A program made the translations under genes and the position numbers. The notes beneath the pieces are model-generated. The model saw only the letters and a list, made by a program, of their open reading frames with translations, was not told the origin of the DNA and searched no databases. From Chloroflexota bacterium (GTDB taxonomy: Bacteria > Chloroflexota > DTOL01 > JACQYG01): 45,838 bases of DNA. Each line of letters begins with the position of its first letter. Position 1 is the stretch's first letter. Positions 2,629 through 29,748 of this stretch are shown here, piece by piece. The DNA is taken from assembly GCA_040754915.1 (NCBI GenBank), contig JBFMCB010000002.1, positions 1-45,838 on the forward strand, in the 5' to 3' direction.

Positions 2629-2692
2629 GGCGCTGGCTTACTTGCTAGAAAGAAAGAATTGTTCGACGCCATCTTGCGGCAGCCAGGCCGGC

Positions 2693-3208
2693 CTATTTGT
2701 AGCGTTTGACCTCAAAGCGATAGAGTTGCACCGGCTCGTCGGGGCCGATACCAGCCTTGCGGCGGGCGATGTCCACCTGGTATTCCACCGTGTCCACCCC
2801 CTCTAGGTCCGGCAGGAGCAGCCCTTTGCGCCAGCCAGACTGAACGATGACGCCGTAGCGTTTGGGATCCAGGTCGGCATAGCCGGCCACCGGCTCCGGC
2901 TCGGAGAGCACGTCCACCGAGATCTCCAGCTCCTCGAGCTCATCAGGCTGCACCGGGTAGAAGCGGGGATCCTGGGTAGCGGAGCTCACAGCGTTCTGGA
3001 TTATCTCCTGGGCCACGTTCTCCCTGGTGGGCTGAAAAGTGCCGATGCAGCCCCGGAGCTCGCCGTGCTTGTGCAGAGACACAAACACCCCCGCCCGGGC
3101 TCGCATCTCGGGGGTGAGCTCCACCGGCGGGCTGGGCTTCTTCCGGTGGCGCACGTAACCCTCGATGGTGTCTTTAGCCAATTGGACCAAGGGGTGCAAA
3201 TCGGCCAT
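2693..3208 (-). CDS. amrA: AMMECR1-domain protein (AmmeMemoRadiSam system protein A)
   Basis: Contains the LRGCIGTF motif. The 171 aa protein is clustered with Memo-like and radical SAM partners. Confidence 0.85.
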
Positions 3209-3250
3209 CTTTGCCCTCCTCGTTCAAACCAGTCCTAAAAACCACCCCCG

Positions 3251-4090: not shown

Positions 4091-4161
4091 GGCGCACCTC
4101 CTGAGCAGCAAGAGAGCGTTGAATTCAAGGCTCTCAGCGACTGAGGACACAAAGCCCAGGC

Positions 4162-5190: not shown

Positions 5191-5235
5191 GGTTCTTAGC
5201 CCGTCAGACCTATACCTGCTCCAACGATTTATAAC

Positions 5236-5265
5236 ATTGTATCACAACATGGTGAAGATTGGCAA
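5236..5265 (-). promoter_or_regulatory. Candidate promoter for the amrS-amrB-amrA operon
   Basis: Minus strand reads TTGCCA, an 18 nt spacer, then TACAAT. Confidence 0.3.
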
Positions 5266-6908: not shown

Positions 6909-6983
6909 TGACCTCTCCTCAACACTAAATCCAGGTCGGGGGCGATGTCCGCCCCACCGCTGCTATCGGATTCTTTATTAGCA

Positions 6984-7427
6984 TCACACCGGCACGAAAT
7001 AGACGTCATTGGCGTTCCACTCCACCAGGCGCTTAAAGCGAGCCTTCACCGGCATGCCGATCACGATGTCCTCGGGCTTTACCCCCACCAGTCTGGACAA
7101 GAAGACCGTGTCGATGCCCGGGAACTCCACGTACACGAGGATAAAGGGCAGGTCGTTCAAGAAGGCCTCGCCAGCGAAATGCAGCACGGAGTAGGTGTGG
7201 ACCTTACCCTCAGTGGGTGCCTCGAACCAGTGACATTTGGCCCCGCACCTGCCGCAATCCCGCCGGGGCGGGAGCCAGGTGGCACCGCAACTGGGACAAC
7301 GGCTGGCGTAGAGCTTTTGCTCTTTCAGGCCCAGGAAAAACTGGCTCACCTCGCCGTAGCTGTGAATGTACTCGATGCGGTAGGGCCGCCCGATCATCAG
7401 GGGCTTAAAAGAATATACGTCGGTCAC
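6984..7427 (-). CDS. Zn-ribbon/OB-fold DUF35 protein (thiolase partner)
   Basis: Has a CPSCG...CGRCG zinc ribbon followed by an OB-like C-terminus. It lies immediately downstream of a thiolase-like gene. Confidence 0.8.
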   Translation of the reverse strand: MTDVYSFKPLMIGRPYRIEYIHSYGEVSQFFLGLKEQKLYASRCPSCGATWLPPRRDCGRCGAKCHWFEAPTEGKVHTYSVLHFAGEAFLNDLPFILVYVEFPGIDTVFLSRLVGVKPEDIVIGMPVKARFKRLVEWNANDVYFVPV

Positions 7428-8730: not shown

Positions 8731-8750
8731 ATTCTTTTCAAGTAAAGAAA
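8731..8750. repeat. AT-rich palindrome family, copy H (ATTCTTTTCAAGTAAAGAAA)
   Basis: Matches the family consensus at 17 of 20 positions. It lies in the divergent intergenic region, 41 nt upstream of the thiolase ATG. Confidence 0.45.
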
Positions 8751-10285: not shown

Positions 10286-10332
10286 CACCCTCAAGGGGCT
10301 TCTGTTATACTCTCGCCGAAAGGCAGGATCCA

Positions 10333-11049
10333 ATGGAACTGAGGCAGTACTGGGACATCCTTTGGCGCCGGGCCTGGGTGGTCCTGGGGCTGGCGCTCTT
10401 GACCCTGGTGGCAAGCGTCCTGGTGAGGCCGACCCGGACCCTGCAATATCAGGCCTCCACGCGGCTGGCGGTGGGCATAAGCCCCGAAGCCGGGGTGGGC
10501 CGATTTTATACCTACGATAATTATTACACGTGGCTCACGGCGGAGTACCTCGCCGACGACCTGGCGGAGGTGGTGAAGAGCCAGGGCTTTGCCCAGGCGG
10601 TGAGCAACCGGATCGGGAGCCCGGTGCCACCAGCGGCGATCACGGGGGCCACTAGCCCCAAGAAACTCCATCGCATCCTGACCATAACCGTCATCATGGC
10701 CGACGCCAACCTGGCTACCCAGGTGGCCCAGGCCGTGGCCTCGGTGCTTCAGGAGGAGGGCGGTCGCTTCTTCGCACAACTCGGCTCCAGCAATGCTGCC
10801 ATAAGCGTTCTGGAGGTGAACCCTGCGACCCCCGTCTCCGGGGGATTCAAGGAGAAACTTGACCTGCCTCTGCGCGTGCTACTGGGATTGGCAGCCGGGG
10901 TGGGATTGGCCTTCTTGCTCGACTACCTGGACGAGTCCGTACGCACCTCGGCCGACCTTGAGTCCTTGGGATTTAGGGTATTGGCAGAGATACCATCCCG
11001 GCCCTCCCGGTGGCGGAGGCTCCTGATCCGCAAAAGCCGCCGGGGATAG
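10333..11049 (+). CDS. Wzz/GumC-like polysaccharide chain-length determinant (BY-kinase modulator type), paralog 1
   Basis: Has an N-terminal MELRQYWDILWRRAWVV... segment plus TM, a periplasmic-type domain, a second TM (LLGLAAGVGLAFLLDYLDE) and a short cytoplasmic tail. Start moved to the ATG at 10333. Confidence 0.7.
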   Translation: MELRQYWDILWRRAWVVLGLALLTLVASVLVRPTRTLQYQASTRLAVGISPEAGVGRFYTYDNYYTWLTAEYLADDLAEVVKSQGFAQAVSNRIGSPVPPAAITGATSPKKLHRILTITVIMADANLATQVAQAVASVLQEEGGRFFAQLGSSNAAISVLEVNPATPVSGGFKEKLDLPLRVLLGLAAGVGLAFLLDYLDESVRTSADLESLGFRVLAEIPSRPSRWRRLLIRKSRRG

Positions 11050-11094
11050 CTCTCGCGGAAATAGGGATGCTAAAAGGGTGACAAGGCATATCTT

Positions 11095-11757
11095 ATGCAA
11101 CTGAGAAGCTATGTGGCGATATTGGTAAAACGTGGCTGGCTCGTGTTGCTTATGGCCTTGGCCGGCCTATTGGGCGCGGTGGCCCTCACCAGAGTGCAGG
11201 TGCCCATCTATCGATCCAGCATCAGGCTCCTGGTGGTGCCGGCGCGGTATGAGCTGGGGGTTAGCCTGGCCGGCAAAAACCTCCTGGGGCAGCTCAGCCT
11301 GGAACTGCAGTCGCCAAACCTGGCGGAGGAGGTCAGTCAGGGGCTCCGGCTGGACGTGCCAGCCCTGGCTCTGCTGGGCTACACCAGGGTGTCCAGCGAG
11401 GAGGACAAATACGTCATCAACCTCAGCGTGGACGACCCGGACCCGGAAAGGGCCCAGATGATCGCCAGCGCCTGGGCTCGGGCGTTTGTGGACCGCTACA
11501 ATGCCCGTAGCCTGGAGGTGGACCGTCGGGATCGGGTGGACGTGGAGATCTACGACAAAGCGACCCCGGCCGAGCTGAATCGCCCGAAGCTGCCCATGAA
11601 CGTGGCCGTGGGCACCCTGGTGGGATTGCTTTTCGGCGTCTTTCTGGTGTTCGGCCTGGAGTATCTGGACGATACCCTGAAAGCCCCGGAGGATGTGGAA
11701 CGCTACGTCGGCCTCACCACCCTGGGCGCCATCCCGGTAGTCGCTGAGAAGGACTAA
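11095..11757 (+). CDS. Wzz-like modulator, paralog 2
   Basis: Same two-TM architecture. Its tail (LEYLDDTLKAPEDVERYVGLTTLGAIP) is nearly identical to that of paralog 3. Confidence 0.75.
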   Translation: MQLRSYVAILVKRGWLVLLMALAGLLGAVALTRVQVPIYRSSIRLLVVPARYELGVSLAGKNLLGQLSLELQSPNLAEEVSQGLRLDVPALALLGYTRVSSEEDKYVINLSVDDPDPERAQMIASAWARAFVDRYNARSLEVDRRDRVDVEIYDKATPAELNRPKLPMNVAVGTLVGLLFGVFLVFGLEYLDDTLKAPEDVERYVGLTTLGAIPVVAEKD

Positions 11758-11759
11758 CG

Positions 11760-12416
11760 ATGGACATCAAAAGCCTTTATCGCCTGCTGCTGAAACGCGG
11801 CTGGATCGTTGTCCTGGTGGCGGCCAGCGCTTGTGCCGGAGCGGTGGTCTCCAGCAAGCTGCAAACGCCTATGTTTCGCTCCACAGTGAAGCTGTTGGTG
11901 CGGCCGGCGCGGTATGACTTCGGCCTCACCGAGGCCGGCAAGCTCCTGATGGGGCAGTTGAGCCTCCGGTTGCAGGCCCCCAGCCTGGCTGAAGAGGTGA
12001 TAGGGCAGCGGGGCCTGATGGTCACGGCCCAGACCCTCTTGCGCCGGGCCAGGGTGGGCACCGAGGAAGGCAAGTATGTGATCCAGCTAAGCGTGGATGA
12101 CCCCGATGCCGGCACGGCCCGGGCCGTGGCCGACACCTGGGCCAAGACCTTTGCCGACCGCTACAATAGCCGCAACAAGGACATCGACCCCCGCGATCGC
12201 ATCAGCGTCGAGATATACGACGCCGCTTCTCCCGCGGAACTCGATCGGCCCAGGACCAGGCTCAATGCCCTGGCCGGGACCCTGCTGGGCCTCATCGTGG
12301 GTGGCCTGGTGGCTGTGGCCCTGGAATATTTGGACGACAGCTTGAAGAACGCCGAGGACGTGGAACGTCACGTTGGCTTGACCACGCTGGGGGCCATCCC
12401 CAGCTCGTCCAGGTGA
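11760..12416 (+). CDS. Wzz-like modulator, paralog 3
   Basis: Clear tandem duplicate of the preceding gene (LSVDDPD, EIYD..SPAEL.RP, LEYLDDSLKNAEDVERHVGLTTLGAIP). Confidence 0.75.
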   Translation: MDIKSLYRLLLKRGWIVVLVAASACAGAVVSSKLQTPMFRSTVKLLVRPARYDFGLTEAGKLLMGQLSLRLQAPSLAEEVIGQRGLMVTAQTLLRRARVGTEEGKYVIQLSVDDPDAGTARAVADTWAKTFADRYNSRNKDIDPRDRISVEIYDAASPAELDRPRTRLNALAGTLLGLIVGGLVAVALEYLDDSLKNAEDVERHVGLTTLGAIPSSSR

Positions 12417-12434
12417 GCTTTACTAGTGAAGAAT
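12415..12434. repeat. AT-rich palindrome family, copy A (GAGCTTTACTAGTGAAGAAT)
   Basis: Matches the consensus at 15 of 20 positions. It spans the stop of Wzz paralog 3 and the GTG start of the BY-kinase. Confidence 0.55.
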
Positions 12435-13163
12435 TTGCCTTTCGCATCGGAGCTAGCCATTCAAGGAGGCAGGCAATTGGTAGAGGAACCCCTTCCCAGG
12501 CTGAACCTGGTCACTGTAACCAACCCTCGGTCGCCGGTCAGCGAGGCCTTTCGGACACTGAGGACAAACATCCAGTTTTCCAGCCTGGACCGGCCGCTCA
12601 AGACCATCCTGGTCACCAGCACCGACCCCGGGGAGGGGAAAAGCACCGTCTTGGCCAACCTGGCAGTGACCATGGCCCAATCAGGCCTGCGCACGGTGGT
12701 GGCGGACTGTGACTTAAGACGCCCCAGCCAGCACCAACTCTTCGGCTTGAGTAATATCAACGGACTGACCTCCATGATGGTGGGTAACGCTCCCATGCAG
12801 GGGGCCTCAATCCAGGATACGGCAGTGCCCAACCTGCGCCTGTTGGCCAGCGGGCCGCTGCCGCCCAACCCATCGGAGTTGCTCGGCTCCCGGCGTATGG
12901 GGGAGATCATCGCGTTCCTGAAGGACCAGGCCGACCTGGTTCTCTTCGATGCCCCACCAATAATCGCCGTAACCGATGCGGCGGTGTTGGCCTCTAAAGT
13001 AGACGGCGTGTTGCTGGTGGTAAATGCTGGCAAGACCAAGCGCGACCTGGCTAGGCGAGCGAAGCTCTTGCTGGACAAAGTGAACGCCAACGTCCTGGGC
13101 GTGGTGCTGAACAACGTGAAGCTGGAAGCCAGCCTGTACCGTTATTACGCCGGCCAGGGATAA
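12426..13163 (+). CDS. CpsD/CapB-family bacterial tyrosine kinase (BY-kinase)
   Basis: Has Walker A (GEGKST), Walker A' (VVADCDLRRP), Walker B (LVLFDAPP) and a C-terminal Tyr cluster (LYRYYAGQG). Confidence 0.85.
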   Translation: MKNLPFASELAIQGGRQLVEEPLPRLNLVTVTNPRSPVSEAFRTLRTNIQFSSLDRPLKTILVTSTDPGEGKSTVLANLAVTMAQSGLRTVVADCDLRRPSQHQLFGLSNINGLTSMMVGNAPMQGASIQDTAVPNLRLLASGPLPPNPSELLGSRRMGEIIAFLKDQADLVLFDAPPIIAVTDAAVLASKVDGVLLVVNAGKTKRDLARRAKLLLDKVNANVLGVVLNNVKLEASLYRYYAGQG

Positions 13164-13179
13164 GGGCCGGCCTGGCCAA

Positions 13180-13199
13180 ACTCTTTACTAGTAAAAAGC
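13180..13199. repeat. AT-rich palindrome family, copy B (ACTCTTTACTAGTAAAAAGC)
   Basis: Carries the exact TTTACTAGTAAA core. It is intergenic, between the BY-kinase and the CDF gene. Confidence 0.65.
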
Positions 13200-13230
13200 T
13201 GCACCAGTACCAAATCTCCGGGGCAAGCCG

Positions 13231-13250
13231 TTTCTTGACTAGTAAATAAT
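13231..13250. repeat. AT-rich palindrome family, copy C (TTTCTTGACTAGTAAATAAT)
   Basis: Matches the consensus at 17 of 20 positions. It overlaps the ATG of the CDF ORF and its centre is 51 bp from copy B. Confidence 0.65.
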
Positions 13251-14664
13251 GGAAGCTGGACATCCAACGTCGGTGACCATAACGCAAGCGGAACAAGAAA
13301 AAAAGACCGTGGCCCTGAGCTCCGTGGCCGCCGCGGTTTTTTTAACCGTGGTGAAGCTCATCGTGGGCTACGCCACCGGCAGCCTGGGCATCATCTCTGA
13401 GGCGGCCCACTCTGCCCTGGACCTGGTGGCCGCCCTTGTCACCTATTTCGCGGTGCGGGTCTCGGACCGGCCGCCGGACCAGGAACACCTCTACGGCCAC
13501 GGCAAGGTGGAGAGCCTCTCCGCCCTCATCGAGACCGCCCTCCTGTTCGTCACCTGCCTCTGGATCATCTACGAGGCCCTGCGACGGCTCCTGGTGTACG
13601 AGGCGCCGGTGGAGGCCAATGTCTGGGGCTTTGGGGTCATGATGCTCTCCATAGCCATCAACGTATCGCGGTCCCAGGCCCTCTCCCGCGTGGCCCGGAA
13701 GTATGGCAGCCAGGCCCTGGAGGCCGACGCCCTGCACTTCTCAAGCGACGTATTGAGCTCGCTGGTGGTCATCGGGGGCCTGGTCTTCGTCCACTTCGGC
13801 TGGACCAGGGCCGACCCCCTGGCTGCCCTGGGTGTGGCCGCCATCGTCATTGTTGCCACCTGGCAACTGGGGAGGCGCACGGTAGACGTGCTGCTGGACC
13901 GGGCCCCGGCGGGTCTGGCGGAGCGCCTCGCCGCCCAGGTGGAACAGATCCCCGGCGTCGAGAATTGCGACCGCCTCCGGGTGCGACGATCGGGTGCCCA
14001 AACCTTCGTGGACATGAACATCTCGGTGGGCCGTACTATCTCCTTCGAGACCGCCCACGCCGTGGCCCTGGCGGTGGAGCATAAGGTCCACGAGTTCCTG
14101 CCCAATGTGGACGTGGTGGTGCACACGGACCCCGCTGAGACCCAGGAGGAATCCATCATCGCCCGCCTCCGCTCCATCGCCGGCAAGCGCCAGCTCCACG
14201 TCCACAACGTCTCGGTGCATGAATCCCACCGCAAATTGCACGTGGACCTGCACCTGGAGGTGGACCAGCACCTGAACCTGAGACAGGCCCACAATATAGC
14301 CAGCCTCTTAGAGGAAGACATCAAAAGGGATATCCCATCCATCGTGGGGCTCAACACCCATATCGAATCCCGCGATACCGGAGTGGTCAATGGCGAGGAC
14401 GTCACCGCCCGGATGCCAGCGGTGGTGCGGGAGATCCGGGCCATTGCCCTGGAGGTGCCAGGGCTGCGGGATTGCCATGCGGTCATCTTGAGAAAGGTCA
14501 ACGGCAATCTGGCTGTATCCATGCATTGCACCCTGGATGAGGAGTTGTCCATGGCCCAGGTCCACCAGGTCTCCACCGAGGTGGAACGCCGCTTGATGAA
14601 CAAGATACCCGACGTGGAACGGGTGATCGTGCACACAGAGCCTTTGCCCCAAGAGGTGGCGTAG
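13249..14664 (+). CDS. Cation diffusion facilitator (CDF) transporter with three tandem cytoplasmic C-terminal domains
   Basis: The TM domain has SEAAHSALD and HFSSD metal-site-like motifs. Three successive about 75 aa alpha/beta repeats follow, ending in VVVHTDP, LNTHIES and VIVHTEP. No SD is seen before the ATG, so the start is uncertain. Confidence 0.8.
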   Translation: MEAGHPTSVTITQAEQEKKTVALSSVAAAVFLTVVKLIVGYATGSLGIISEAAHSALDLVAALVTYFAVRVSDRPPDQEHLYGHGKVESLSALIETALLFVTCLWIIYEALRRLLVYEAPVEANVWGFGVMMLSIAINVSRSQALSRVARKYGSQALEADALHFSSDVLSSLVVIGGLVFVHFGWTRADPLAALGVAAIVIVATWQLGRRTVDVLLDRAPAGLAERLAAQVEQIPGVENCDRLRVRRSGAQTFVDMNISVGRTISFETAHAVALAVEHKVHEFLPNVDVVVHTDPAETQEESIIARLRSIAGKRQLHVHNVSVHESHRKLHVDLHLEVDQHLNLRQAHNIASLLEEDIKRDIPSIVGLNTHIESRDTGVVNGEDVTARMPAVVREIRAIALEVPGLRDCHAVILRKVNGNLAVSMHCTLDEELSMAQVHQVSTEVERRLMNKIPDVERVIVHTEPLPQEVA

Positions 14665-14724
14665 CCCAGCTCCCGTGCGCTGATCCTGTTCTATGGGAAA
14701 TCGCCATGGCTGTGGAGGCACAGG

Positions 14725-15297
14725 ATGGATTCGCTGGAAAGGTACCGGGGGCCTATTCTGGTTCTTTTCCTGGCCTTGGCCCTGGTCGGAGGTGTGGTCC
14801 TGGTCCTCCGCCGACCCGAACCCCAGCCGCTGGAGATCGTCATACCCACTAAGCCCCCCACCGTCAGGCCTGGGCCAATTAAGGTTTTCGTCAACGGGGC
14901 CGTGGTCAAGCCCGACCTATATACATTGCAGCCAGGTGATCGGGTCAAAGACGCCATAGAGGCCGCCGGCGGGGTTTCCCCCGACGCGGATGAGTCCAGG
15001 ATGCCGAACCTGGCCGCCAGGCTCAGCGATGGCCAGCAGGTCTACGTCCCCCGACGTGGCGAGGCCGCCGGGTTCAATGCCCCTGGCGTGTCCGGCCCGC
15101 CGGCCCTGATCAACATCAACACCGCCTCGGGGGCCGAGCTGGACTCGCTCCCCGGCATCGGTCCCACCACCTCCCAGCGCATCATCGAGCACCGTAACAA
15201 GAACGGCCCGTTCCAAAGGATAGAGGAGTTGAAAGAAAAAAAGCTGGTCAATTCCTCTACTTTCGAGCGGATCAAGGAATTGATCACCGTGCAGTAG
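14725..15297 (+). CDS. comEA: Competence protein ComEA (TM + SLBB + helix-hairpin-helix DNA binding)
   Basis: Contains an IKVFVNGAVVKPDLYTLQPGDRV segment (SLBB) and INTASGAELDSLPGIGPTTSQRIIEHR (HhH). Confidence 0.85.
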   Translation: MDSLERYRGPILVLFLALALVGGVVLVLRRPEPQPLEIVIPTKPPTVRPGPIKVFVNGAVVKPDLYTLQPGDRVKDAIEAAGGVSPDADESRMPNLAARLSDGQQVYVPRRGEAAGFNAPGVSGPPALININTASGAELDSLPGIGPTTSQRIIEHRNKNGPFQRIEELKEKKLVNSSTFERIKELITVQ

Positions 15298-15313
15298 CCC
15301 GCTTGAACGAGGC

Positions 15314-15655
15314 ATGATCATCCAGTCCTACGAATTCGGGCGGCTCGTGGTTGGCGGGAAGCTATACACCGCCGATGTCATCATCTATCCTGACCGCGTG
15401 CAGGGCCACTGGCGGCGTCAGGAGGGCCACCGGCTCTCCTGGGAGGACCTCAGTGACGCCCTGGCCGCGAACCCCCAGGTGGTGGTCCTGGGCACCGGCA
15501 GCGCCGGGGCGATGGAGGTCCCCGAATCGGTGATCCAGCGCCTGAGAGCCCGGGGCATCGAAGTGATCGTGGCCCCCACCGGCCAGGCCTGTGCGGAATA
15601 CAACCGGCTTTCGCCGGCGAGTAGAGTGATCGCGGCTTTACATTTGACGTGCTGA
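15314..15655 (+). CDS. Mth938-like (DUF498) domain protein
   Basis: 113 aa with the pattern FGRLVVGGKLYTADVIIYPD...VVVLGTGSAGAMEV...GIEVIV..TGQACAEYN. Confidence 0.65.
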   Translation: MIIQSYEFGRLVVGGKLYTADVIIYPDRVQGHWRRQEGHRLSWEDLSDALAANPQVVVLGTGSAGAMEVPESVIQRLRARGIEVIVAPTGQACAEYNRLSPASRVIAALHLTC

Positions 15656-15734
15656 TAGCACCCGCATCTTCCGCGCCGCCGAGATCCAGGATCGCCCCAG
15701 GGCCCCCGTTGGCTTTGGACACCAGGACTTAGCC

Positions 15735-17465
15735 ATGGACGACTTGATCGGCAAATCGCTGGGGCAATATCGCATCGTGGAGCAACTGGGCCGGGGAGGC
15801 ATGGCCGTGGTTTACAAGGCCTACCAGGCCTCCCTGGACCGTTACGTGGCGATCAAGGTCCTGCCCTTTTTCCAGGCGCAAGACCCCACGGCCATGGAGC
15901 GCTTCTACCGGGAGGCTAGGGCCATTGCCAGGCTGGAACACCCCAACATCCTGACCGTCTTCGACTTCGGCCAGGTCGACGGCACCCTTTACATCGTCAT
16001 GCAGTACGTCGAAGGCGGCACCCTGAAGGAGAGGCTGGGAGCCCCCCTGGATCTGGACGTCGCCGCGAAGATCATCCGCCAGGTGGGCGAGGCCCTGGAG
16101 TACGCCCACGGCCTGGGAGTAGTGCACCGCGACATCAAGCCCAGCAATGTCCTCCTGGCCAAGGGCGACCGGGTGCTGCTCTCTGACTTTGGCCTGGCCA
16201 AGATGATGGAGAGCACCAGTGCCTTGACCAAGGCCGGGGTGGGCATGGGCACCCCCCAGTATATGTCCCCCGAGCAAGGCCGCGGTGAGCCGGTGGACGG
16301 GCGGTCGGACATCTACTCCCTGGGTGTGGTGCTCTACGAGATGCTCACCGGCCAGGTGCCCTTCGATGCCGAGACCCCCCTGGCGGTGGTGCTGAAACAC
16401 CTGAGCACACCGTTGCCTCGACCCCGGGGGCTGAATCCCCAGATTCCAGAGCTGGTGGAACAGGTGATCCTAAAGGCCACCGCTAAGAGCCCGGCCCAAC
16501 GCTACCAGAGCGCCGCGGAGATGGTGGAGGCCTTGCTCCAGGCCTGTGGCATTGCTCGAGCCCTGCTGGAAGCGCCCAGGGTCTCGGCGGCAGAGACGGT
16601 GGCGGTTCCACCGCCGGGGCCGGCCGTTACCGCGCCGGCCCTGTTCCCGCCCTCGGCCATCTCGCCTCCCTCGGTCCCGCCAGTCGTGCCTTCACCGGCC
16701 AGGGCTGCCACCGTTTTCTCCGGAGCGGCGCTGGGCCTCCTGGCTGGGGTGTTGGCCCTGGGCTGCGGCGCCCTGGTCATCCTCGGTCTCCTTACGCCCG
16801 GCAGCCCGGCCCGGTCTCTCCTGACGGCATTTTTGGCCTCTCCCACCGCCACATTTACTAGTAAAGAAACGGAAACGCTGGCCCCTACTCCTTCAGTGAC
16901 CACAGTGGTTACGGTCTCGCCGACGCCAACCACAACGCCCTCGCTCACCCCCACCCGGGCCACCCCCACGGCCATCACCAGCGCCCCGCCGGCCCCCACC
17001 CCTACCTGTGCCATCGCGCCAGCGGCCGACTACGCCAAGGTCTGGAATGCGTTCGGCGGGAGGGGGCGTCTGGGCTGCGCCCTCAATCAAGTCCACCCCA
17101 CCGACGCGGCCTACGAAGCGTTTGAAAACGGCTTCATGTATTGGCGCAAGGATGCGCTGAAGATCTACGTGCTCTACAACGCCGGGACCTGGGCCGAGTA
17201 TACGGACTCGTACAAAGAAGGCGACCCCGAGCCAACCATCACCCCTACGCCGCCGGCGGGAAGGGTGGCGCCCGTGAGAGGCTTTGGCAAGGTCTGGCGC
17301 GAACAACTGGGCGGTGCAAGGAGCGCCCTGGGCTGGGCCACGGCAGCGGAACAGGGGCTTAGCGGGAGCCCGGTGGAGGACTTCCAGCGCGGGGTGATCT
17401 TCACCTGTGGTGGCAAGGGGACCTTCGTGCTTTTTAGGGACAACGGCCGGTGGGCTATGCCTTGA
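15735..17465 (+). CDS. Hanks-type Ser/Thr protein kinase with TM helix, PT-rich linker and LGFP-like extracellular repeats
   Basis: Has HRDIKPSN, DFGLAK and YMSPEQ motifs and a TM segment (AALGLLAGVLALGCGALVILGLL). The C-terminus has two LG...E..F..G-type repeats. Confidence 0.9.
   Translation: MDDLIGKSLGQYRIVEQLGRGGMAVVYKAYQASLDRYVAIKVLPFFQAQDPTAMERFYREARAIARLEHPNILTVFDFGQVDGTLYIVMQYVEGGTLKERLGAPLDLDVAAKIIRQVGEALEYAHGLGVVHRDIKPSNVLLAKGDRVLLSDFGLAKMMESTSALTKAGVGMGTPQYMSPEQGRGEPVDGRSDIYSLGVVLYEMLTGQVPFDAETPLAVVLKHLSTPLPRPRGLNPQIPELVEQVILKATAKSPAQRYQSAAEMVEALLQACGIARALLEAPRVSAAETVAVPPPGPAVTAPALFPPSAISPPSVPPVVPSPARAATVFSGAALGLLAGVLALGCGALVILGLLTPGSPARSLLTAFLASPTATFTSKETETLAPTPSVTTVVTVSPTPTTTPSLTPTRATPTAITSAPPAPTPTCAIAPAADYAKVWNAFGGRGRLGCALNQVHPTDAAYEAFENGFMYWRKDALKIYVLYNAGTWAEYTDSYKEGDPEPTITPTPPAGRVAPVRGFGKVWREQLGGARSALGWATAAEQGLSGSPVEDFQRGVIFTCGGKGTFVLFRDNGRWAMP
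16850..16869. repeat. AT-rich palindrome family, copy D (CACATTTACTAGTAAAGAAA)
   Basis: Carries the exact TTTACTAGTAAAGAAA core. It lies inside the kinase ORF in the post-TM linker and is read as T-F-T-S-K-E. Confidence 0.65.
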
Positions 17466-17535
17466 AGGAGATGTCGAACCCCTACCTCCGGCGGGACCAT
17501 AGACAGGGCCTGAGAACCCCTGGCCCGGGTGCCTC

Positions 17536-19869
17536 ATGACCATCACTCAAATGGGGCTGGCCTGGCTGGCCGGCACGTTCCTGGGGCCTCTCCTGTCCCC
17601 GGCTCACCTCGTTTTCGCCCTTTTGGCTTCCCTCTTGCTCCCCGTCGCCATTTTCCTCTGGAGGAGGCGATTTCCCTGGGCCCTTGGGTTCGCCATGGGC
17701 ATTCTGCTCCTGGGCGCCCTGCGCTATCAGGCTGCCCTTCCCCCGGCAGGTAGCCAGCCGCTCCAGCATTGCCGGGAGCGGGGGCCCGTGGAAATCATCG
17801 GCCGGGTAACCGAGGAGCCCGACGTCCGGGACCGCTGGACTTACCTGAGAGTCCAGGTCGAAGGGCTGACCTGTGGGGATGACCCGGCGCCGGCAGCCGG
17901 GGCGGTTCAGGTGCGAGCGCGCCGCTATCCCGAGTATCGCTACGGGGACGTATTGAGGGTTCGTGGCCAGCTCTCTGAGCCACCGGTCTACGAGGACTTC
18001 TCCTACCGCGACTACCTGGCCCGCAGAGGCATTTATGCCGTGGTCAACGAGCCTCGCATCGAGATCGTGGCCCGGGATAGAGGAAACCCCCTGATCTCCC
18101 GGCTCCTGCAGTTGAAGAGTTCCCTGCACGCCTCCCTGGTCCGGGCCGTGCCCGAGCCCCAGGCGTCGCTCCTGGCGGGGATCCTGCTAGGGCTCAAGCC
18201 AGGCATCCCGGATGACCTCAAAAGGGCCCTGGCGACCACCGCTTTGACCCACATCATCGTCATCTCCGGGTATAACATCAGTGTAATCGCTGGCGCCGTA
18301 GCCAGGGCCACGCGCCAGCTCCTGGGGTATCAGGCGAGCCTGGTCCTGGCCATGGCCTCCATCTTGCTTTTCTTATTCTTCGCGGGCTGGAACCCGCCGG
18401 TGCTCCGGGCCTCGCTCATGTCCGGCCTGACCCTTTTGGCCTCGCTGACCGGCCGCATCAGCTTCACCGAGGATGCCTTAGTCCTAGCTGCCGCAGCCAT
18501 GACGGCTCACGATCCCATGGCCCTCCAGGACCTGAGCTTCCAGCTTTCCTTTCTGGCCACCGCCGGATTGGTGCTGGTGGCGCCATCCATAGAGGGTCGG
18601 CTCGCCTTTCTGCCTCCGGTCCTCCGCGGCCCTTTGGCGGTCAGCCTGGCCGCCCAGGCCATGACGGCACCGCTCATCGCCTACGATTTCCACCAGGTCT
18701 CGTTGGTGGGCCCCCTGGCGAACCTAGTGGCGCTGCCGATTGTGCCCTGGGCCATGCTGACGGGGGCAACGACCGCCGGCGTGGGCCTGCTCTCCCCCGA
18801 CCTGGCCAACGTCTCGGGGTGGACAGCCTGGCTCACCGCCGGAGCAATTGCCTTTTCCGCGCAATCGCTGGGCTCACTGGCCCTGGCCTCCGTGACTCTC
18901 CCCCGGTTCCACGTGGGCTGGGTTTGGCTGTATTTTATCCTGGTGGTGGCGTTTCTATCCCGAGGGAGGCTGGCCGAGCTGGCTTCTTCACTAGTAAAGA
19001 ACGCCCCCCGGCTGGCCCCGGCTCCGCTCAAACCGGTGATCGTCGCTCTCTTGGTTGCGGGCTCGCTGCTCTGGTTGGCGCTCCTGTCGCTCCCGGACGG
19101 CCGCTGGCGCGTGACCTTCCTGGACGTTGGCCAGGGAGATTCCATCCTTATCCAGACCGCCCAGGGTCAGAAGATTCTCGTGGATGGCGGCCCCAGCCCC
19201 TCGGCTATAACCGCCGCCCTGGGTAAAAGGCTGCCGTTCTGGGACCGATCCCTGGACCTGGTGGTGTTGTCGCACCCTCACGAGGATCACCTGGCCGGGC
19301 TGGTGGAGGTATTGAGCCGTTATCACGTGACGGAAGTCCTGGAGCCGCCCAACCTCAAGGGTAATCCCCTGGCCTCGGAGTGGACCAGGCTGGTCCAAAC
19401 CAAAGGGATCAAAGCTGTCGTCGCCGAGAGCGGGCAACTCATCAAGCTGGGCGAAGAAGCCTGGCTGGAGGTCCTGTATCCCAACGAGGACCACAGCACT
19501 TGCTCCGGAAGTGACGCCAACAATTGCTCTATAGTTTTGAGGCTGGTGATCGGTCGTTTCACGGCCCTCCTCCCCGGCGATTTGGAGGCCCCGGGGCAGG
19601 ATAGGCTCCTGGGGCGTGCCGATGATCTCAAGGCCCTGGTGCTCAAAGTGCCCCATCACGGCAGTGCCTCCTCCTTGGATCAGGCCTTTCTCGACCAGGT
19701 CAGCCCCGAAGTTGCCATTCTATCGCTTGGCAAGGAAAACCAGTTCGGCTTCCCCGCCACCTCCTGTCTACGAAAACTGGAGGGGATCAAAGTCTTCCGA
19801 ACTGACCTCCATGGTAATGTGGAGGTCACTACCGACGGCAGAAGTTACTCGATTCGCTGGGATCAATAG
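17536..19869 (+). CDS. comEC: DNA internalization competence protein ComEC/Rec2 (DUF4131 + competence TM domain + metallo-beta-lactamase)
   Basis: 777 aa multi-TM protein with C-terminal FLDVGQGDS and SHPHEDH motifs. Confidence 0.9.
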   Translation: MTITQMGLAWLAGTFLGPLLSPAHLVFALLASLLLPVAIFLWRRRFPWALGFAMGILLLGALRYQAALPPAGSQPLQHCRERGPVEIIGRVTEEPDVRDRWTYLRVQVEGLTCGDDPAPAAGAVQVRARRYPEYRYGDVLRVRGQLSEPPVYEDFSYRDYLARRGIYAVVNEPRIEIVARDRGNPLISRLLQLKSSLHASLVRAVPEPQASLLAGILLGLKPGIPDDLKRALATTALTHIIVISGYNISVIAGAVARATRQLLGYQASLVLAMASILLFLFFAGWNPPVLRASLMSGLTLLASLTGRISFTEDALVLAAAAMTAHDPMALQDLSFQLSFLATAGLVLVAPSIEGRLAFLPPVLRGPLAVSLAAQAMTAPLIAYDFHQVSLVGPLANLVALPIVPWAMLTGATTAGVGLLSPDLANVSGWTAWLTAGAIAFSAQSLGSLALASVTLPRFHVGWVWLYFILVVAFLSRGRLAELASSLVKNAPRLAPAPLKPVIVALLVAGSLLWLALLSLPDGRWRVTFLDVGQGDSILIQTAQGQKILVDGGPSPSAITAALGKRLPFWDRSLDLVVLSHPHEDHLAGLVEVLSRYHVTEVLEPPNLKGNPLASEWTRLVQTKGIKAVVAESGQLIKLGEEAWLEVLYPNEDHSTCSGSDANNCSIVLRLVIGRFTALLPGDLEAPGQDRLLGRADDLKALVLKVPHHGSASSLDQAFLDQVSPEVAILSLGKENQFGFPATSCLRKLEGIKVFRTDLHGNVEVTTDGRSYSIRWDQ
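18983..19002. repeat. AT-rich palindrome family, copy E (CTTCTTCACTAGTAAAGAAC)
   Basis: Matches the consensus at 17 of 20 positions. It lies inside comEC, between the TM domain and the beta-lactamase domain. It is read as S-S-L-V-K-N, a different phase from copy D. Confidence 0.65.
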
Positions 19870-19935
19870 CGCCTGGCTATAGGAAAAAAGTACTACGCGC
19901 CACCTCGATCTTGAGCGTTTTCGAGGGTCACGGTA

Positions 19936-19944
19936 TGTTATAAT
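19936..19944 (+). promoter_or_regulatory. Extended -10 element (TGtTATAAT) upstream of the GGDEF gene
   Basis: TGTTATAAT lies in an AT-rich intergenic patch. No good -35 is present, as is often the case for extended -10 promoters. Confidence 0.35.
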
Positions 19945-19969
19945 TCTATTGTCTTGCCCATTTAATGCG

Positions 19970-19989
19970 TTTCTTTACTAGCAAAGAAC
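19970..19989. repeat. AT-rich palindrome family, copy F (TTTCTTTACTAGCAAAGAAC)
   Basis: Matches the consensus at 18 of 20 positions. It starts 26 nt downstream of the TATAAT and lies about 75 nt upstream of the GGDEF ATG. Confidence 0.7.
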
Positions 19990-20063
19990 GTTTCATGCTG
20001 GTCCCTGGATGGCCTCTCTAAGCCCAGGTCCCGGCATAGTCGTGATGCGGAGCGAACCAGCAA

Positions 20064-21776
20064 ATGTTCGGCTTGGAAGTCGTCTCGTTGGTCACCTCTC
20101 TGATCGCCGTGATCCTCCTCCTGGTGGGCATCTCCTTGTGGCGGCGACGCGATGCCACTTTCTTTACTGGTAAGGAGAAGGGGCTATTGACTTTCCAGGA
20201 GATCGACCGGGAGCTGAACGCCACGTTGGACCCGGGCCAAGTCCTGGATCTGGTCCTGGACCGGGCCATGACCCAGACTGCGGCAGATAGGGGGCTCATC
20301 GCTTTCTTCGACGAGCACAAAGGCAGCTACTTCCTGGTGACCGAGCGCAATTATCCACCGGGCGTTGACCGTTATCGCCAGGAGCCGTGGCCGGCGGAGC
20401 GCGGGATCGTGGGCAGGGTGGCCCGGACCGGCCAGGCGGCGCTCGTCTCCGACGTAAGCCGCGATGGCGACTACGCCTCGGTCTCACCGGACACCCGCTC
20501 CGAGTTGGCCGTGCCCTTCCTTCGACAAGGGCAGGTGATCGGCGTGATCAACCTGGAAAGCGACCGCCTGGCTGCCTTCAACCAGGGGCACCAGGGCTTT
20601 CTGCAGCGTCTTTGCGACCATGCGGCGGTCGCTTTGACCAATGCCCACCTCTACCAACAAGAAGCGCGGCAAGCCAGGCTCCTACAACAAAAGGCCAATC
20701 AACTGGCCGAGATCCTCAAGGTCGGCAACGCCCTGAAAGCGAACCTGAGCCTGCCGGACGTCCTGGAACAGATCACCAGGGCCGTTACCTCTAGCCTGGG
20801 GTTCAACCTGGCCTTGCTGAGCCTGGTGGATGAGGATGATCCTACGGTCCTGAAACGCGTGGCCGGTGCTGGGCTGGATCCCGCCACCTTCGAGCAGTTG
20901 AGGGCAACGTCTGTTCCGTTGTCGCAATACCAGCGGATCATGCAGGAGCGATTCCGCATAAGTCAGTCCTACTACGTTAGCCACTCGCATCCGGAGATCT
21001 GGGAAGGGGTTAGCGGGGTCTTCGTGCCGGACCTGGGAGAGAGAAGAGAGGGCGAATGGCAGTCCAACGATGCGCTTTTCGTCCCCTTGATGGGCACCGA
21101 CGGCAGGATCATCGGGATACTCTCTGTGGACGATCCGGTGGACCGCATGGTGCCCACCCTGGAGACCATCGAAGGCCTGGAGGTCTTCGCCAACCAGGCG
21201 GCAATTGCCATCGAGAACGCTAAGCTCTATGAGCAGGCCAGGCGCCTGGCCATCACCGATGGCTTAACCGGTCTATTCAACAGCCGCTACTTCTACGAGG
21301 CGCTGGAGAAAGAGATGCAGAAGACCGACCGCTATGGTCACCCTCTGTCGCTGATCATCCTAGACCTGGACGATTTCAAGGCCTACAACGATGCCTATGG
21401 CCATCTGGTGGGTGACAACCTGCTGGTGCAGTTGGCCTCGCTCCTCACCAGCATCACCCGAGGCGCGGATATTGTGGCCCGCTATGGGGGAGAGGAGTTT
21501 GCCATCATCGTTCCCGAAACCAGCCTGGAACAGGCCCGGCAACTGGCCGAGCGCATCCGGGTGGCGGTGGAGAACCACGTCTTCATGGTGAGCGGCAGGC
21601 CGCTGGAGACCGCCATCACCGTCAGCGTAGGCGTGGCCGCCTATCCTCAAGGATCCTGGGGCGAAAAACAATTCGTCCAGGCCGCTGACGCTGCGGCCTA
21701 TGCCGCCAAACAGGCCGGGAAAAACCGGGTCTGCATTTACGGGCGAGATGCCCTGCACCCGGCCTTGCAGTTGTAG
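20064..21776 (+). CDS. Membrane-anchored GAF-GAF-GGDEF diguanylate cyclase
   Basis: Has an N-terminal TM segment and two GAF-like regions. The GGEEF active site has an RxxD I-site five residues upstream (RGADIVARYGGEEF). Confidence 0.9.
   Translation: MFGLEVVSLVTSLIAVILLLVGISLWRRRDATFFTGKEKGLLTFQEIDRELNATLDPGQVLDLVLDRAMTQTAADRGLIAFFDEHKGSYFLVTERNYPPGVDRYRQEPWPAERGIVGRVARTGQAALVSDVSRDGDYASVSPDTRSELAVPFLRQGQVIGVINLESDRLAAFNQGHQGFLQRLCDHAAVALTNAHLYQQEARQARLLQQKANQLAEILKVGNALKANLSLPDVLEQITRAVTSSLGFNLALLSLVDEDDPTVLKRVAGAGLDPATFEQLRATSVPLSQYQRIMQERFRISQSYYVSHSHPEIWEGVSGVFVPDLGERREGEWQSNDALFVPLMGTDGRIIGILSVDDPVDRMVPTLETIEGLEVFANQAAIAIENAKLYEQARRLAITDGLTGLFNSRYFYEALEKEMQKTDRYGHPLSLIILDLDDFKAYNDAYGHLVGDNLLVQLASLLTSITRGADIVARYGGEEFAIIVPETSLEQARQLAERIRVAVENHVFMVSGRPLETAITVSVGVAAYPQGSWGEKQFVQAADAAAYAAKQAGKNRVCIYGRDALHPALQL
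20159..20178. repeat. AT-rich palindrome family, copy G (TTTCTTTACTGGTAAGGAGA)
   Basis: Matches the consensus at 17 of 20 positions. It lies inside the GGDEF ORF just after the TM helix, is read as F-F-T-G-K-E, and its centre is 189 bp from copy F. Confidence 0.55.
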
Positions 21777-29345: not shown

Positions 29346-29748
29346 AGGCACGAGGACGAGCGCCGGGACCGGGACGCACCGGGTTATTGCGGAGGCCACG
29401 GTCCTGTCCAACGGTGTCAGCGTGATACTGGTTGGAGGCACCTTGCCCCACATCGGCGCGGTGGCCATAGCGGTGCCGCGCCCCAGCCTGGCTGACCCGG
29501 CCATGCCTAGCGCCACCACCTCGGTGTATACCGTGGTAGGGCACAAAGACGACGAGATCGCCCGCCCGGCGGCTCATCTCCTGGCCCAGGAACTGGGCTG
29601 CCTGGCAGTGGTCACGGCGGGGGTACACCTGGATAACGCCACCCCACAAGACGTGGAGCTACTGGTGACCAATGCTCGGCGGGCCAGCGAAAGGTTGGCC
29701 CGCCGGTTGAGGCTCCGTCTCTTTACCGGTAAAGTGAATGGCCTCTAG
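29335..29748 (+). CDS. LpdD-like prenylated-flavin chaperone (UbiD-system accessory protein)
   Basis: The GGTLPHIGAVA and TAGVHLDNAT segments resemble my recollection of LpdD (GGTNPHIGDV, TAGIHVNQIT). Start placed at the ATG at 29335, overlapping the ubiX end by 11 nt. Confidence 0.5.
   Translation: MMGRGTRTSAGTGTHRVIAEATVLSNGVSVILVGGTLPHIGAVAIAVPRPSLADPAMPSATTSVYTVVGHKDDEIARPAAHLLAQELGCLAVVTAGVHLDNATPQDVELLVTNARRASERLARRLRLRLFTGKVNGL
29718..29737. repeat. AT-rich palindrome family, variant copy I (TCTCTTTACCGGTAAAGTGA)
   Basis: The CTTTAC-CG-GTAAAG arms are kept, with a symmetric CTAG-to-CCGG change at the centre. It lies in the last codons of the LpdD-like ORF and is read as L-F-T-G-K-V. 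Confidence 0.4.

What the first reader, a model, noticed from the sequence alone, without database searches (positions are those of the whole stretch)
12415..20178. Recurrent AT-rich 20-bp palindrome (consensus TTTCTTTACTAGTAAAGAAA): seven copies within 8 kb of a GC-rich genome
ACTAGT-centred copies lie at 12415, 13180, 13231, 16850, 18983, 19970 and 20159, with weaker copies at 8731 and 29718. Each matches the consensus TTTCTTTACTAGTAAAGAAA, itself a perfect palindrome, at 15 to 18 of 20 positions. In DNA this GC-rich, an almost pure A/T 12-mer core (TTTACTAGTAAA, exact twice and one mismatch in four more) should occur far less than once per window by chance, and CTAG is normally avoided. Copies sit at gene boundaries, in promoter-proximal DNA and inside ORFs. 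That distribution fits a dimeric DNA-binding protein site (global regulator, partition or condensin-loading type site, nucleoid protein), an uptake or recombination signal, or a tiny structured element. No cognate HTH gene is visible in the window. The neighbouring comEA and comEC genes make an uptake-signal hypothesis worth testing, though it is speculative.
Basis: seen in the sequence. Interest (0 to 1): 0.75.

Follow-up and report, generated by a model that had tools for sequence, protein, structure and literature searches.

The report
Clustered AT-rich palindrome, probable protein-binding sites
A 20-base AT-rich palindrome really does recur in this GC-rich Chloroflexota contig, most likely as docking sites for one unidentified DNA-binding protein and not as a DNA-uptake signal; the sites evolve about as fast as non-coding DNA.

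Summary
Nine sites match TTTCTTTACTAGTAAAGAAA at 15-18 of 20 positions, against none expected. A weight matrix separates them cleanly (21.5 bits or more; next best 9.2). The source is an uncultured Chloroflexota lineage known only from genomes 92-97% identical to it. The next relatives (ComEC 40-43% identical) lack the motif. Adding relatives shows about 13 site loci within 30.5 kb and none in the roughly 45 kb flanking the cluster or 9.8 kb at another locus. Isolated single sites occur at other loci.

Sites sit where coding constraint is low: 5' UTRs, junctions inside operons, first or last codons, and inter-domain linkers. The RNA hairpin is weak, the flanks are not conserved, and there are no target duplications, no transposase and no Rfam match.

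Sites cover 1.35% of aligned columns but hold 35% of indel events. They accumulate substitutions at about the intergenic rate, and four loci are present or absent among near-identical genomes.

My best reading (about 0.45) is an array of recognition sites for an unidentified dimeric DNA-binding protein acting as operators and elongation roadblocks, similar to phage "stoperators" or KorB sites. The rivals are decaying relics of a tiny palindromic repeat, or a parS-like centromere array. The uptake-signal idea fails on density. The cognate protein and the function remain unknown.

The parts
2637..2656 (.). Decayed copy (CTTACTTGCTAGAAAGAAAG, 7.2 bits), just upstream of the promoter and Moco riboswitch of the moa operon
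   Evidence: The orthologous position in L142 (8178) scores 23.8 bits and ends 8 nt before a TTGACT-17-TATATT promoter.
6970..6989 (.). Decayed copy (ATTCTTTATTAGCATCACAC) with the right arm lost to a 10-nt deletion. It lies at the junction between the ChsH2-like OB-fold gene and the MaoC gene inside an operon
   Evidence: L142 3810 keeps GTTATTTACAAGTAAAAAAT (25.1 bits). The alignment shows the deletion in the window.
8731..8750 (.). Site ATTCTTTTCAAGTAAAGAAA in the 5' UTR of the minus-strand operon (thiolase, OB-fold, MaoC, acyl-CoA dehydrogenase)
   Evidence: 3 mismatches. A TTGACT-16-TAAAAT promoter lies at 8812-8785 and the ATG at 8690, so the site is at about +29..+48. The ortholog is present in L142.
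12415..12434 (.). Site GAGCTTTACTAGTGAAGAAT between the stop of the third Wzz-like gene and the tyrosine (BY) kinase gene (likely start GTG 12480)
   Evidence: L001 and L028 carry fuller copies; the window has a 3-nt CTT deletion in the left arm.
13180..13199 (.). Site ACTCTTTACTAGTAAAAAGC, 17 nt after the BY-kinase stop and 50-69 nt before the CDF transporter ATG
   Evidence: Present in L001 with indels. In L028 it is replaced by 18 unrelated bases.
13231..13250 (.). Site TTTCTTGACTAGTAAATAAT overlapping the CDF start codon (ATG 13249)
   Evidence: The L028 ortholog matches the consensus 20 of 20.
16562..16588 (.). Locus empty in the window. L001 has GCTCTTTACTAGTAAAGAAG here, an in-frame swap of 27 nt for 21 nt just after the kinase domain of the Ser/Thr kinase
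   Evidence: L002 and L135 share the empty allele. L001 differs over a block of about 100 nt, which suggests an imported allele.
16850..16869 (.). Site CACATTTACTAGTAAAGAAA inside the Ser/Thr kinase gene, in the Pro/Thr-rich linker after the transmembrane helix, read as T-F-T-S-K-E-T
   Evidence: L001 matches 19 of 20. L002 has ACGCCTACCAGCACGGCTACG instead (T-P-T-S-T-A-T).
18983..19002 (.). Site CTTCTTCACTAGTAAAGAAC inside comEC, in a variable loop between the Competence and metallo-beta-lactamase domains, read as S-S-L-V-K-N
   Evidence: Present in all six relatives. L136 and L137 carry the symmetric change ACTAGT to ATTAAT.
19970..19989 (.). Site TTTCTTTACTAGCAAAGAAC in the leader of the GAF-GGDEF gene, 25 nt after the extended -10 TGTTATAAT (19936-19944)
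   Evidence: Unique to the window. L001, L002, L135, L136 and L137 show a remnant of the left arm and a 6-nt gap in the alignment, and L145 has no site at this locus.
20159..20178 (.). Site TTTCTTTACTGGTAAGGAGA inside the GAF-GGDEF gene, just after the N-terminal transmembrane helix, read as T-F-F-T-G-K-E-K
   Evidence: Present in L001, L135, L136, L137 and L145.
29718..29737 (.). Weak site TCTCTTTACCGGTAAAGTGA in the last 10 codons of the PAC_bac/LpdD-like gene
   Evidence: The L145 ortholog is slightly better at 25.6 bits.

Best explanation
The sites are DNA-level recognition sites for one homodimeric, sequence-specific DNA-binding protein that is not encoded in the window. The protein would read a 12-14 bp core (CTTTACTAGTAAAG) plus T-rich and A-rich shoulders.

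The sites have no fixed position relative to promoters. They lie upstream of a -35 element, possibly over one, at +19 to +57 in three leaders, at cistron junctions, and in permissive coding DNA. They are packed about one per 2 kb over roughly 20-30 kb. I therefore think the protein works as a multi-site array: bound dimers repress initiation where they overlap promoters and block elongating RNA polymerase elsewhere. This would jointly damp a neighbourhood of operons (Moco synthesis, beta-oxidation-like genes, polysaccharide chain-length and tyrosine-kinase genes, CDF transporter, comEA, Ser/Thr kinase, comEC, diguanylate cyclase) plus scattered single targets. Redundancy within the array would leave each site under weak selection, which would explain the turnover.

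Shown: the family is real, it is lineage-specific, it is clustered, where it sits, how it evolves, and that RNA and mobile-element signatures are absent. Inferred: protein binding, dimeric recognition, and the roadblock or repression mechanism.
For: The palindrome is perfect through its centre, with C9/G12 invariant and positions 5-16 about 91% conserved in the nine window sites. There are nine sites against none expected. The same family occurs at orthologous and non-orthologous loci in independent assemblies. Only 5 of 13 cluster loci are in coding DNA, against a coding fraction of 0.887 (P = 2e-5). Those in coding DNA use only the two open reading frames of the motif and fall in linkers or gene termini. 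Sites come in pairs before the CDF gene (51 bp apart) and at the GGDEF gene (189 bp apart). In all three cases with a recognisable promoter upstream in the same leader, the site is at +19 to +57. One site abuts a -35 element. All 13 loci fall in 30.5 kb of a 75-kb contiguous stretch (P = 8e-6). The hairpin is weak (-3.5 kcal/mol) and recurrent uncompensated arm variants such as TTGAC argue against an RNA role. A known precedent for many repressor sites in short intergenic spaces that stop elongation is the mycobacteriophage stoperator (PMC9283540).
Against: No cognate gene was found next to any site in about 150 kb of lineage DNA. Sites are not conserved above background: 0.105 substitutions per site, against 0.083 for other intergenic DNA and 0.050 for coding DNA. 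They also carry 31 of 89 indel events. Four loci are present or absent among 92-97% identical genomes. The flanking genes share no functional theme. There are no expression or binding data.
Confidence: 0.45

Rival explanations
1. The sites are relics, or still-spreading copies, of a very short selfish palindromic repeat (REP-, MITE- or RPE-like, or spread by an unknown copy or conversion process). Copies survive only where they do no harm and now decay neutrally.
For: Substitution rate is near neutral and indels are about 26-fold enriched at sites. Arm deletions of 3, 6 and 10 nt are seen. Whole blocks are present or absent at four loci. Coding copies use only the two stop-free frames and sit in linkers or termini, while the third frame (TAC TAG TAA) supplies stop codons in L015 and L023. 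Neighbouring genes are heterogeneous. Local clustering could reflect local spread.
Against: The unit is only 20 bp with no conserved flanks, no terminal repeats beyond the palindrome and no target-site duplication. 'Empty' alleles are the same length or longer, so the pattern is replacement, not insertion. No transposase or RAYT gene is listed in the gene tables of about 95 kb of relatives or in the window. About 55 kb has no copy. The hairpin is far weaker than a REP hairpin. At least two 'gains' sit inside wider divergent blocks that look like recombined alleles. No known mobile element is this small.
Confidence: 0.2
2. The sites form a centromere-like, condensin-loading or nucleoid-occlusion array: a non-canonical parS-type cluster bound by a ParB-, KorB- or Noc-like or other architectural protein. 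Site position relative to genes would then be irrelevant.
For: A tight cluster of about 13 palindromes in 30 kb with outlying single sites resembles parS arrays. Sites inside genes are tolerated. Redundancy would explain weak per-site constraint. The half-site AGTAAA resembles the TGTAAA half-site of the 15-bp AT-rich parS2 of Vibrio cholerae chromosome II (PMC3688505).
Against: No parA or parB, ori-proximal markers or ParB/Srx domain appear in the 75 kb around the cluster. The only ParA-like hit is a bona fide tyrosine autokinase (TIGR01007, 214 bits, with a Tyr-rich C-terminus). There is no GC-skew switch. At least seven further loci outside the cluster carry good sites. Sites decay instead of being strictly kept.
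Confidence: 0.12
3. The motif acts in RNA. Because it is a palindrome, transcripts from either strand carry the same sequence, which could form a protein-stabilised hairpin or processing site, or pair with another copy to give a 20-bp duplex for RNase III.
For: All sites lie in transcribed DNA: leaders, cistron junctions and coding sequence. Two copies directly follow tRNA 3' ends (L125 tRNA-Val; the weak copy after L023 tRNA-Glu). A few arm changes are symmetric (29718 ACCGGT; L136 ATTAAT).
Against: The hairpin is only -3.5 kcal/mol. In their flanks, six of seven window stretches fold no better than shuffles and only 20159 stands out (z = -2.5). Most arm changes are uncompensated, including the recurrent G7/A14 variant. 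The loop itself is palindromic and is the most conserved part, which points to duplex DNA recognition. No Rfam family matches.
Confidence: 0.07
4. The motif is a DNA uptake signal recognised by the competence machinery encoded nearby (comEA, comEC).
For: Only the proximity to comEA and comEC and the tolerance of copies inside genes.
Against: Known uptake signals occur about once per kb across the whole genome (established knowledge of Neisseria DUS and Pasteurellaceae USS). Here about 55 kb of lineage DNA has none and the copies are locally clustered. Known signals are not palindromes. ComEA and ComEC are not the specificity determinants in known systems.
Confidence: 0.02
5. The sites are crossover sites for a site-specific recombinase (serine-invertase-type with 9-2-9 symmetry and a central TA, a shufflon, or dif-like modules).
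For: The 9-TA-9 layout resembles invertase sites. Sites lie at gene boundaries and are hotspots of sequence change.
Against: All relatives are collinear with the window across the cluster, with no inversion or deletion between sites. No recombinase gene is nearby. Recombination between the copies inside genes would destroy comEC, the kinase gene and the cyclase gene.
Confidence: 0.03

Closest known systems
Mycobacteriophage cluster A repressor sites ('stoperators', L5 gp71 type)
   Same: More than twenty short sites for one repressor are spread at about one per 2 kb. They lie in promoters and in short intergenic spaces, and are proposed to stop both initiation and elongation (PMC9283540). Density and placement at gene boundaries match the cluster here.
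   Different: Stoperators are 13-bp asymmetric sites bound by a monomer and are orientation-dependent. They lie in a prophage that encodes its own repressor. Here the site is a 20-bp palindrome in a chromosomal housekeeping neighbourhood, some copies lie inside genes, and no repressor is known.
ParB-parS centromere arrays, including the 15-bp AT-rich parS2 of Vibrio cholerae chromosome II, and KorB operator sites of plasmid RK2
   Same: These are palindromic sites clustered over tens of kb with a few outliers, and positions inside genes are tolerated. The parS2 half-site TGTAAA resembles AGTAAA here. KorB combines partition with global repression at promoter-proximal and distal sites (KorB statement from my own knowledge).
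   Different: There is no match to canonical parS, no parAB or korAB genes within 75 kb, the arm spacing differs from parS2, and sites are not strictly conserved.
Catabolite-responsive elements (cre) of CcpA and similar global LacI-type regulators
   Same: These are 14-16 bp palindromes with a conserved centre. They are found in promoters, leaders and inside genes, where they act as roadblocks, and their target genes are heterogeneous (my own knowledge).
   Different: The sequence is unrelated (central TA step, everted arms). Cre sites are not clustered in one 30-kb neighbourhood, and the family of the binder here is unknown.
REP/BIME elements and in-frame Rickettsia palindromic elements
   Same: These are palindromic, occur at cistron junctions, change rapidly between strains, and (for Rickettsia palindromic elements) tolerate in-frame insertion into genes (my own knowledge).
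   Different: Those units are 35-150 bp with stable hairpins and hundreds of copies, and REPs have an associated RAYT transposase. Here the unit is 20 bp, the hairpin is -3.5 kcal/mol, copy number looks low, and there is no transposase and no insertion signature.
DNA uptake sequences (Neisseria DUS, Pasteurellaceae USS)
   Same: Short motifs tolerated inside genes, in organisms with com genes.
   Different: Those are non-palindromic and spread evenly at about one per kb. The motif here is clustered and is absent from about 55 kb.

Membership tests
Operator set of a dimeric transcription factor (regulon) | Palindromic site of 14-20 bp, over-represented relative to chance | tested here: met
   Nine sites against none expected, with a perfect 20-bp palindromic consensus.
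Operator set of a dimeric transcription factor (regulon) | Sites lie in promoter regions at positions consistent with repression or activation | tested here: inconclusive
   Three sites are at +19 to +57 of recognisable promoters, one abuts a -35 element and one may overlap a -35 element. Five or six others are at junctions inside operons and four are inside genes. No transcription start data are available.
Operator set of a dimeric transcription factor (regulon) | Sites conserved above neighbouring non-coding DNA in relatives | tested here: not met
   0.105 substitutions per site in sites, against 0.083 in other intergenic DNA. Sites carry 35% of indel events. Four loci are present or absent. 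Only genomes 92-97% identical were available, so statistical power is low.
Operator set of a dimeric transcription factor (regulon) | A cognate regulator gene, often next to a site | tested here: not met
   No suitable gene is in the window or the fetched loci. The Fur-family gene 130 nt from the L016 site has its own classic Fur boxes.
ParB-parS centromere | Match to the conserved 16-bp parS (TGTTNCACGTGAAACA) | tested here: not met
   No position within 3 mismatches in about 150 kb of lineage loci.
ParB-parS centromere | Several sites clustered within tens of kb | tested here: met
   About 13 loci in 30.5 kb and none in the 45 kb flanking it (P = 8e-6).
ParB-parS centromere | parA/parB genes and an origin nearby | tested here: not met
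   None in the 75-kb stretch. The ParA-like hit is a tyrosine autokinase. No skew switch is seen.
ParB-parS centromere | ParB binding and spreading | not testable with these tools
   This needs ChIP-seq or in-vitro binding.
REP/RAYT or MITE-type mobile repeat | Stable imperfect hairpin or terminal inverted repeats with a target-site duplication | tested here: not met
   The fold is -3.5 kcal/mol. No conserved flanks or duplications were found at 22 copies.
REP/RAYT or MITE-type mobile repeat | Empty sites differ from filled sites by a clean insertion | tested here: not met
   Alternative alleles are blocks of similar length: 18 versus 21 nt, 27 versus 21, 15 versus 21, and 36 versus 29.
REP/RAYT or MITE-type mobile repeat | High copy number and an associated transposase | tested here: inconclusive
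   No transposase was seen and about 55 kb has no copy.
DNA uptake sequence | Even genome-wide density of about one per kb | tested here: not met
   No sites in W 29.8-45.8 kb, L144 1-9988, L147 1-18800 or L146 1-9780.
Known structured RNA family (Rfam) | Match to a covariance model, or a stable conserved fold | tested here: not met
   The only Rfam hit in the window is the Moco riboswitch at 2438-2583. Folds at six of seven site stretches are no better than shuffles; only 20159 stands out (z = -2.5).
Site-specific recombination sites (invertase, shufflon, dif modules) | Rearrangements between sites and a recombinase gene nearby | tested here: not met
   All relatives are collinear across the cluster and no recombinase was found (6, 7, 33, 34).

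The most novel reading that the evidence does not exclude
The 20-bp palindrome is a self-propagating or conversion-driven 'nano-repeat', smaller than any described mobile or REP-type element. It would replace short stretches of permissive DNA, including in-frame stretches in protein linkers, and then decay. Alternatively, it is the recognition site of a chromosomal, stoperator-like silencing array in Chloroflexota that controls a 20-30 kb neighbourhood of housekeeping operons.
Probability: 0.15. Interest if true: 0.75.

Novelty: new member of a known kind. Interest (0 to 1): 0.42.

Why it matters
If one protein binds these sites, the motif points to an unknown regulator or architectural protein in an uncultured Chloroflexota lineage. 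It would link polysaccharide export, c-di-GMP synthesis, competence genes, metal efflux and Moco synthesis into one controlled neighbourhood. It would also be a chromosomal counterpart of the phage 'stoperator' principle. If the sites are instead decaying copies of a 20-bp repeat, that would raise the question of how so small a palindrome spreads, including in frame into proteins. In both cases the 20-mer is a ready bait for affinity capture or DAP-seq. The practical lesson for genome scans is that a striking, statistically solid motif can still evolve as if neutral.

Tried and rejected
1. Phage origin. The 18-mer scan of viral contigs gave 12 single hits, all in contigs of 32-42% GC, which is chance level.

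2. Deeper conservation. The nearest other lineages (ComEC 40-43% identical, L138-L141) have no motif and different synteny, so no comparison at intermediate distance was possible.

3. ParA next to the sites. The 12426/12480-13163 gene is a tyrosine autokinase, not a partition ATPase.

4. Extended element. 30-nt flanks of 22 copies show no conservation, terminal repeats or duplications. A shared GGTGAGC flank at two loci was not general.

5. Other repeats in the window. Nothing else is noteworthy.

6. Fur operator. The L016 site is near a Fur-family gene, but that gene and efeU carry classic Fur boxes.

7. Candidate binders in the window. The 439-aa protein is all coiled coil. The 329-aa neighbour of the best site is a sigma/anti-sigma fusion. 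Relaxed Pfam scans found no HTH.

8. Literature. Exact-string searches for the core found only primers and spacers. A general search for Chloroflexi motifs found nothing matching.

9. Motif comparisons recalled from memory (BldD, DarR, FapR, DosR, NarL 7-2-7, LacI-type, SmtB 12-2-12, Rok TACTA preference). All differ in arm sequence or spacing, so they are leads only and were not tested.

10. Paired-core scan of viral contigs. It found unrelated phage families with multi-copy TTACTAGTAA, and one LexA-box look-alike. None is informative about this lineage.

Full report
OBSERVATION

The nine stated positions all carry the motif. Mismatches to TTTCTTTACTAGTAAAGAAA are 3, 5, 5, 3, 4, 3, 2, 3 and 5 for 8731, 12415, 13180, 13231, 16850, 18983, 19970, 20159 and 29718. 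The 12-mer core is exact twice and off by one in four more, with 0.00 expected in shuffles. All five ACTAGT hexamers in the window are inside sites. A symmetrised weight matrix scores the nine sites at 21.5-32.8 bits and the next best position at 9.2 bits. Window GC is 0.59-0.67.

ORGANISM AND RELATIVES

ComEC-based searches place the window in an uncultured Chloroflexota lineage. Relatives are L001 (a MAG labelled Ktedonobacter racemifer, 93% nucleotide identity), L002 (groundwater Chloroflexi MAG, 92%), and L135, L136, L137, L142/L147, L144 and L145 (92-97%). The ComEC cluster then drops straight to 43% identity. Those next lineages (L138-L141) have no such motif and different gene order. 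The motif is therefore lineage-specific, and only very shallow comparisons are possible.

THE FAMILY IS WIDER THAN THE WINDOW

It gave 105 chance hits in AT-rich contigs and about ten in contigs of 58-64% GC, seven of them from one sample. L028 is the ortholog of W 12020-13783. L016 is orthologous to L146. The others (L015, L023, L047, L048, L054, L098, L104) match none of the DNA I hold around the window, so they are other loci. A viral scan gave only chance hits.

CLUSTERING

L142 keeps good copies at two loci that are decayed in the window: about 2637, and about 6970 where the window has lost the right arm by a 10-nt deletion. L142 also has a strong site (35 bits) 745 nt beyond the window's left edge. 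L001 has an extra copy at the position of W 16562.

There are no sites in W 29.8-45.8 kb, in 10 kb to the right (L144), in 18.8 kb to the left (L147) or in 9.8 kb beside the fur-locus site (L146). So about 13 loci lie in 30.5 kb of a 75-kb contiguous stretch (P = 8e-6), and 12 of them fall within 21 kb.

PLACEMENT

- 8731 lies at about +29..+48 of a TTGACT-16-TAAAAT promoter, in the leader of a minus-strand beta-oxidation-like operon.
- 19970 starts 25 nt after an extended -10 element.
- The L047 site lies about +38 of TGgTATAAT.
- The moa-locus copy ends 8 nt before a -35 element.
- 12415, 13180/13231, 6970, L048 and L015 are at junctions inside operons, and several overlap a stop codon, a start codon or a ribosome-binding site.
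- The copies inside genes fall in a kinase linker (16850 and L001's extra copy), a variable ComEC loop (18983), the juxtamembrane segment of the diguanylate cyclase (20159) and the tail of a PAC_bac gene (29718).

One frame of the motif reads TAC TAG TAA. It is never used inside a gene, but it supplies the stop codon in L015 and L023. The other two frames read F-T-S-K-E and S-L-L-V-K-K. Only 5 of 13 cluster loci are coding, against a coding fraction of 0.887 (P = 2e-5).

WHAT IT IS NOT

- RNA structure. The hairpin is -3.5 kcal/mol, and six of seven site stretches fold no better than shuffles when their flanks are included. The only Rfam hit in the window is a Moco riboswitch. Most arm changes are uncompensated.
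- Classical mobile element. There are no conserved flanks, terminal repeats or target duplications, and no transposase in the window or in the gene tables of relatives. 'Empty' alleles are blocks of similar length, not clean deletions.
- Canonical parS. There is no match, no parAB genes, and the ParA-like gene is a tyrosine autokinase.
- Uptake signal. The density is far too low and uneven.
- Recombination sites. All relatives are collinear across the cluster.

EVOLUTION

Across 52 kb of pairwise alignment, sites make up 1.35% of the columns but hold 31 of 89 indel events. The substitution rate is 0.105 in sites, 0.083 in other intergenic DNA and 0.050 in coding DNA.

Typical lesions are slippage in CTTCTTT (3 nt, at both 12415 and 16850) and arm deletions of 6 and 10 nt.

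Four of nine comparable loci are present or absent (13180, 16562, 16850, 19970). At 16562 and 16850 the alternative allele sits in a wider divergent block, which suggests old alleles exchanged by recombination and not fresh insertion. At 19970 the 'empty' allele keeps a left-arm remnant.

Individual sites therefore show no detectable purifying selection at this depth. The statistical power is low, and redundancy within an array could produce the same picture.

INTERPRETATION

Perfect symmetry through a highly conserved centre, a weak RNA fold and avoidance of constrained coding DNA point to recognition of duplex DNA by a dimeric protein. Variable position relative to promoters, leader and inter-cistronic locations and the density of about one per 2 kb resemble repressor arrays that also block elongation. 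The mycobacteriophage stoperator is the closest precedent (PMC9283540). KorB sites and CcpA cre roadblocks are further analogues from my own knowledge. I put this reading at about 0.45.

A decaying short palindromic repeat (0.20) explains the neutral evolution better but lacks any known mechanism and any insertion signature. A parS-like architectural array (0.12) explains the clustering and tolerance inside genes, and shares a half-site flavour with Vibrio parS2 (PMC3688505), but it has no partner genes nearby. RNA-level, recombination and uptake readings together get about 0.12.

LIMITS

Only MAG fragments were available. The cognate protein, the genome-wide copy number and any expression effect are unknown.

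Noticed in passing
window 2438-2583 (- strand): Moco (molybdenum cofactor) riboswitch, RF01055, 58.8 bits, upstream of a 143-aa ORF followed by moaA and moaC. A decayed motif copy lies just upstream of its promoter.
   Followed up: partly
window 2693-5241 (- strand): A complete AmmeMemoRadiSam trio (AMMECR1, Memo, radical SAM) next to the moa genes.
   Followed up: no
window 10264-13163: Three tandem Wzz/CspC-type chain-length-determinant paralogs followed by a separate tyrosine autokinase (TIGR01007) with a YRYY tail. They are preceded by a 439-aa protein that is all coiled coil and has no family match.
   Followed up: partly
window 13249-14664: A CDF (FieF/MntE-like) transporter of 471 aa with three matches to the ZT_dimer domain, which is an unusually long cytoplasmic tail.
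   Followed up: no
window 16555-16650 and 16850-16925 (Ser/Thr kinase linker): Blocks of 80-100 nt differ sharply between genomes that are otherwise 92-93% identical. This looks like recombined old alleles in the linkers around the transmembrane helix.
   Followed up: partly
L047 1470-2974: A low-GC (0.37-0.5) island with an SPPY-motif DNA methyltransferase and a putative restriction endonuclease. It sits directly beside a motif copy and the promoter of a radical SAM gene.
   Followed up: no
L172 (viral contig, GC 0.41), and also L165, L150, L156: L172 has ten copies of the 10-mer palindrome TTACTAGTAA in 7.5 kb (about 0.02 expected), at gene boundaries and inside cobT/cobS-like ORFs. Three other phage contigs have 3-4 copies each with their own flanks. 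These appear to be independent phage motif families sharing the same core.
   Followed up: partly
L016 3425-3460 and 2925-2950: Classic Fur boxes (GATAATTGCGAATAATTATCATTATC) precede an efeU/FTR1-like gene and the Fur-family gene. This shows that the nearby motif copy is not the Fur operator.
   Followed up: yes
L142 10480-11469 (its C-terminus corresponds to window 3-353): A 329-aa protein that fuses sigma-70 regions 2 and 4 with a zf-HC2 anti-sigma motif and a transmembrane tail. The best-scoring motif copy lies in its divergent upstream region, shared with a MOSC gene.
   Followed up: partly
L137 end (window 20159-20178); L002 end (about window 19990): Contigs of relatives end exactly at, or just after, motif loci. 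This fits strain heterogeneity or assembly trouble at these palindromes.
   Followed up: no
L125 444-535 (GC 0.55 contig): A motif copy (ATTCTTTACTAGTGAAGAAA) begins at the discriminator base of a tRNA-Val gene. The weak copy in L023 also lies 8 nt after a tRNA-Glu gene. It is unclear whether L125 belongs to the same lineage.
   Followed up: partly
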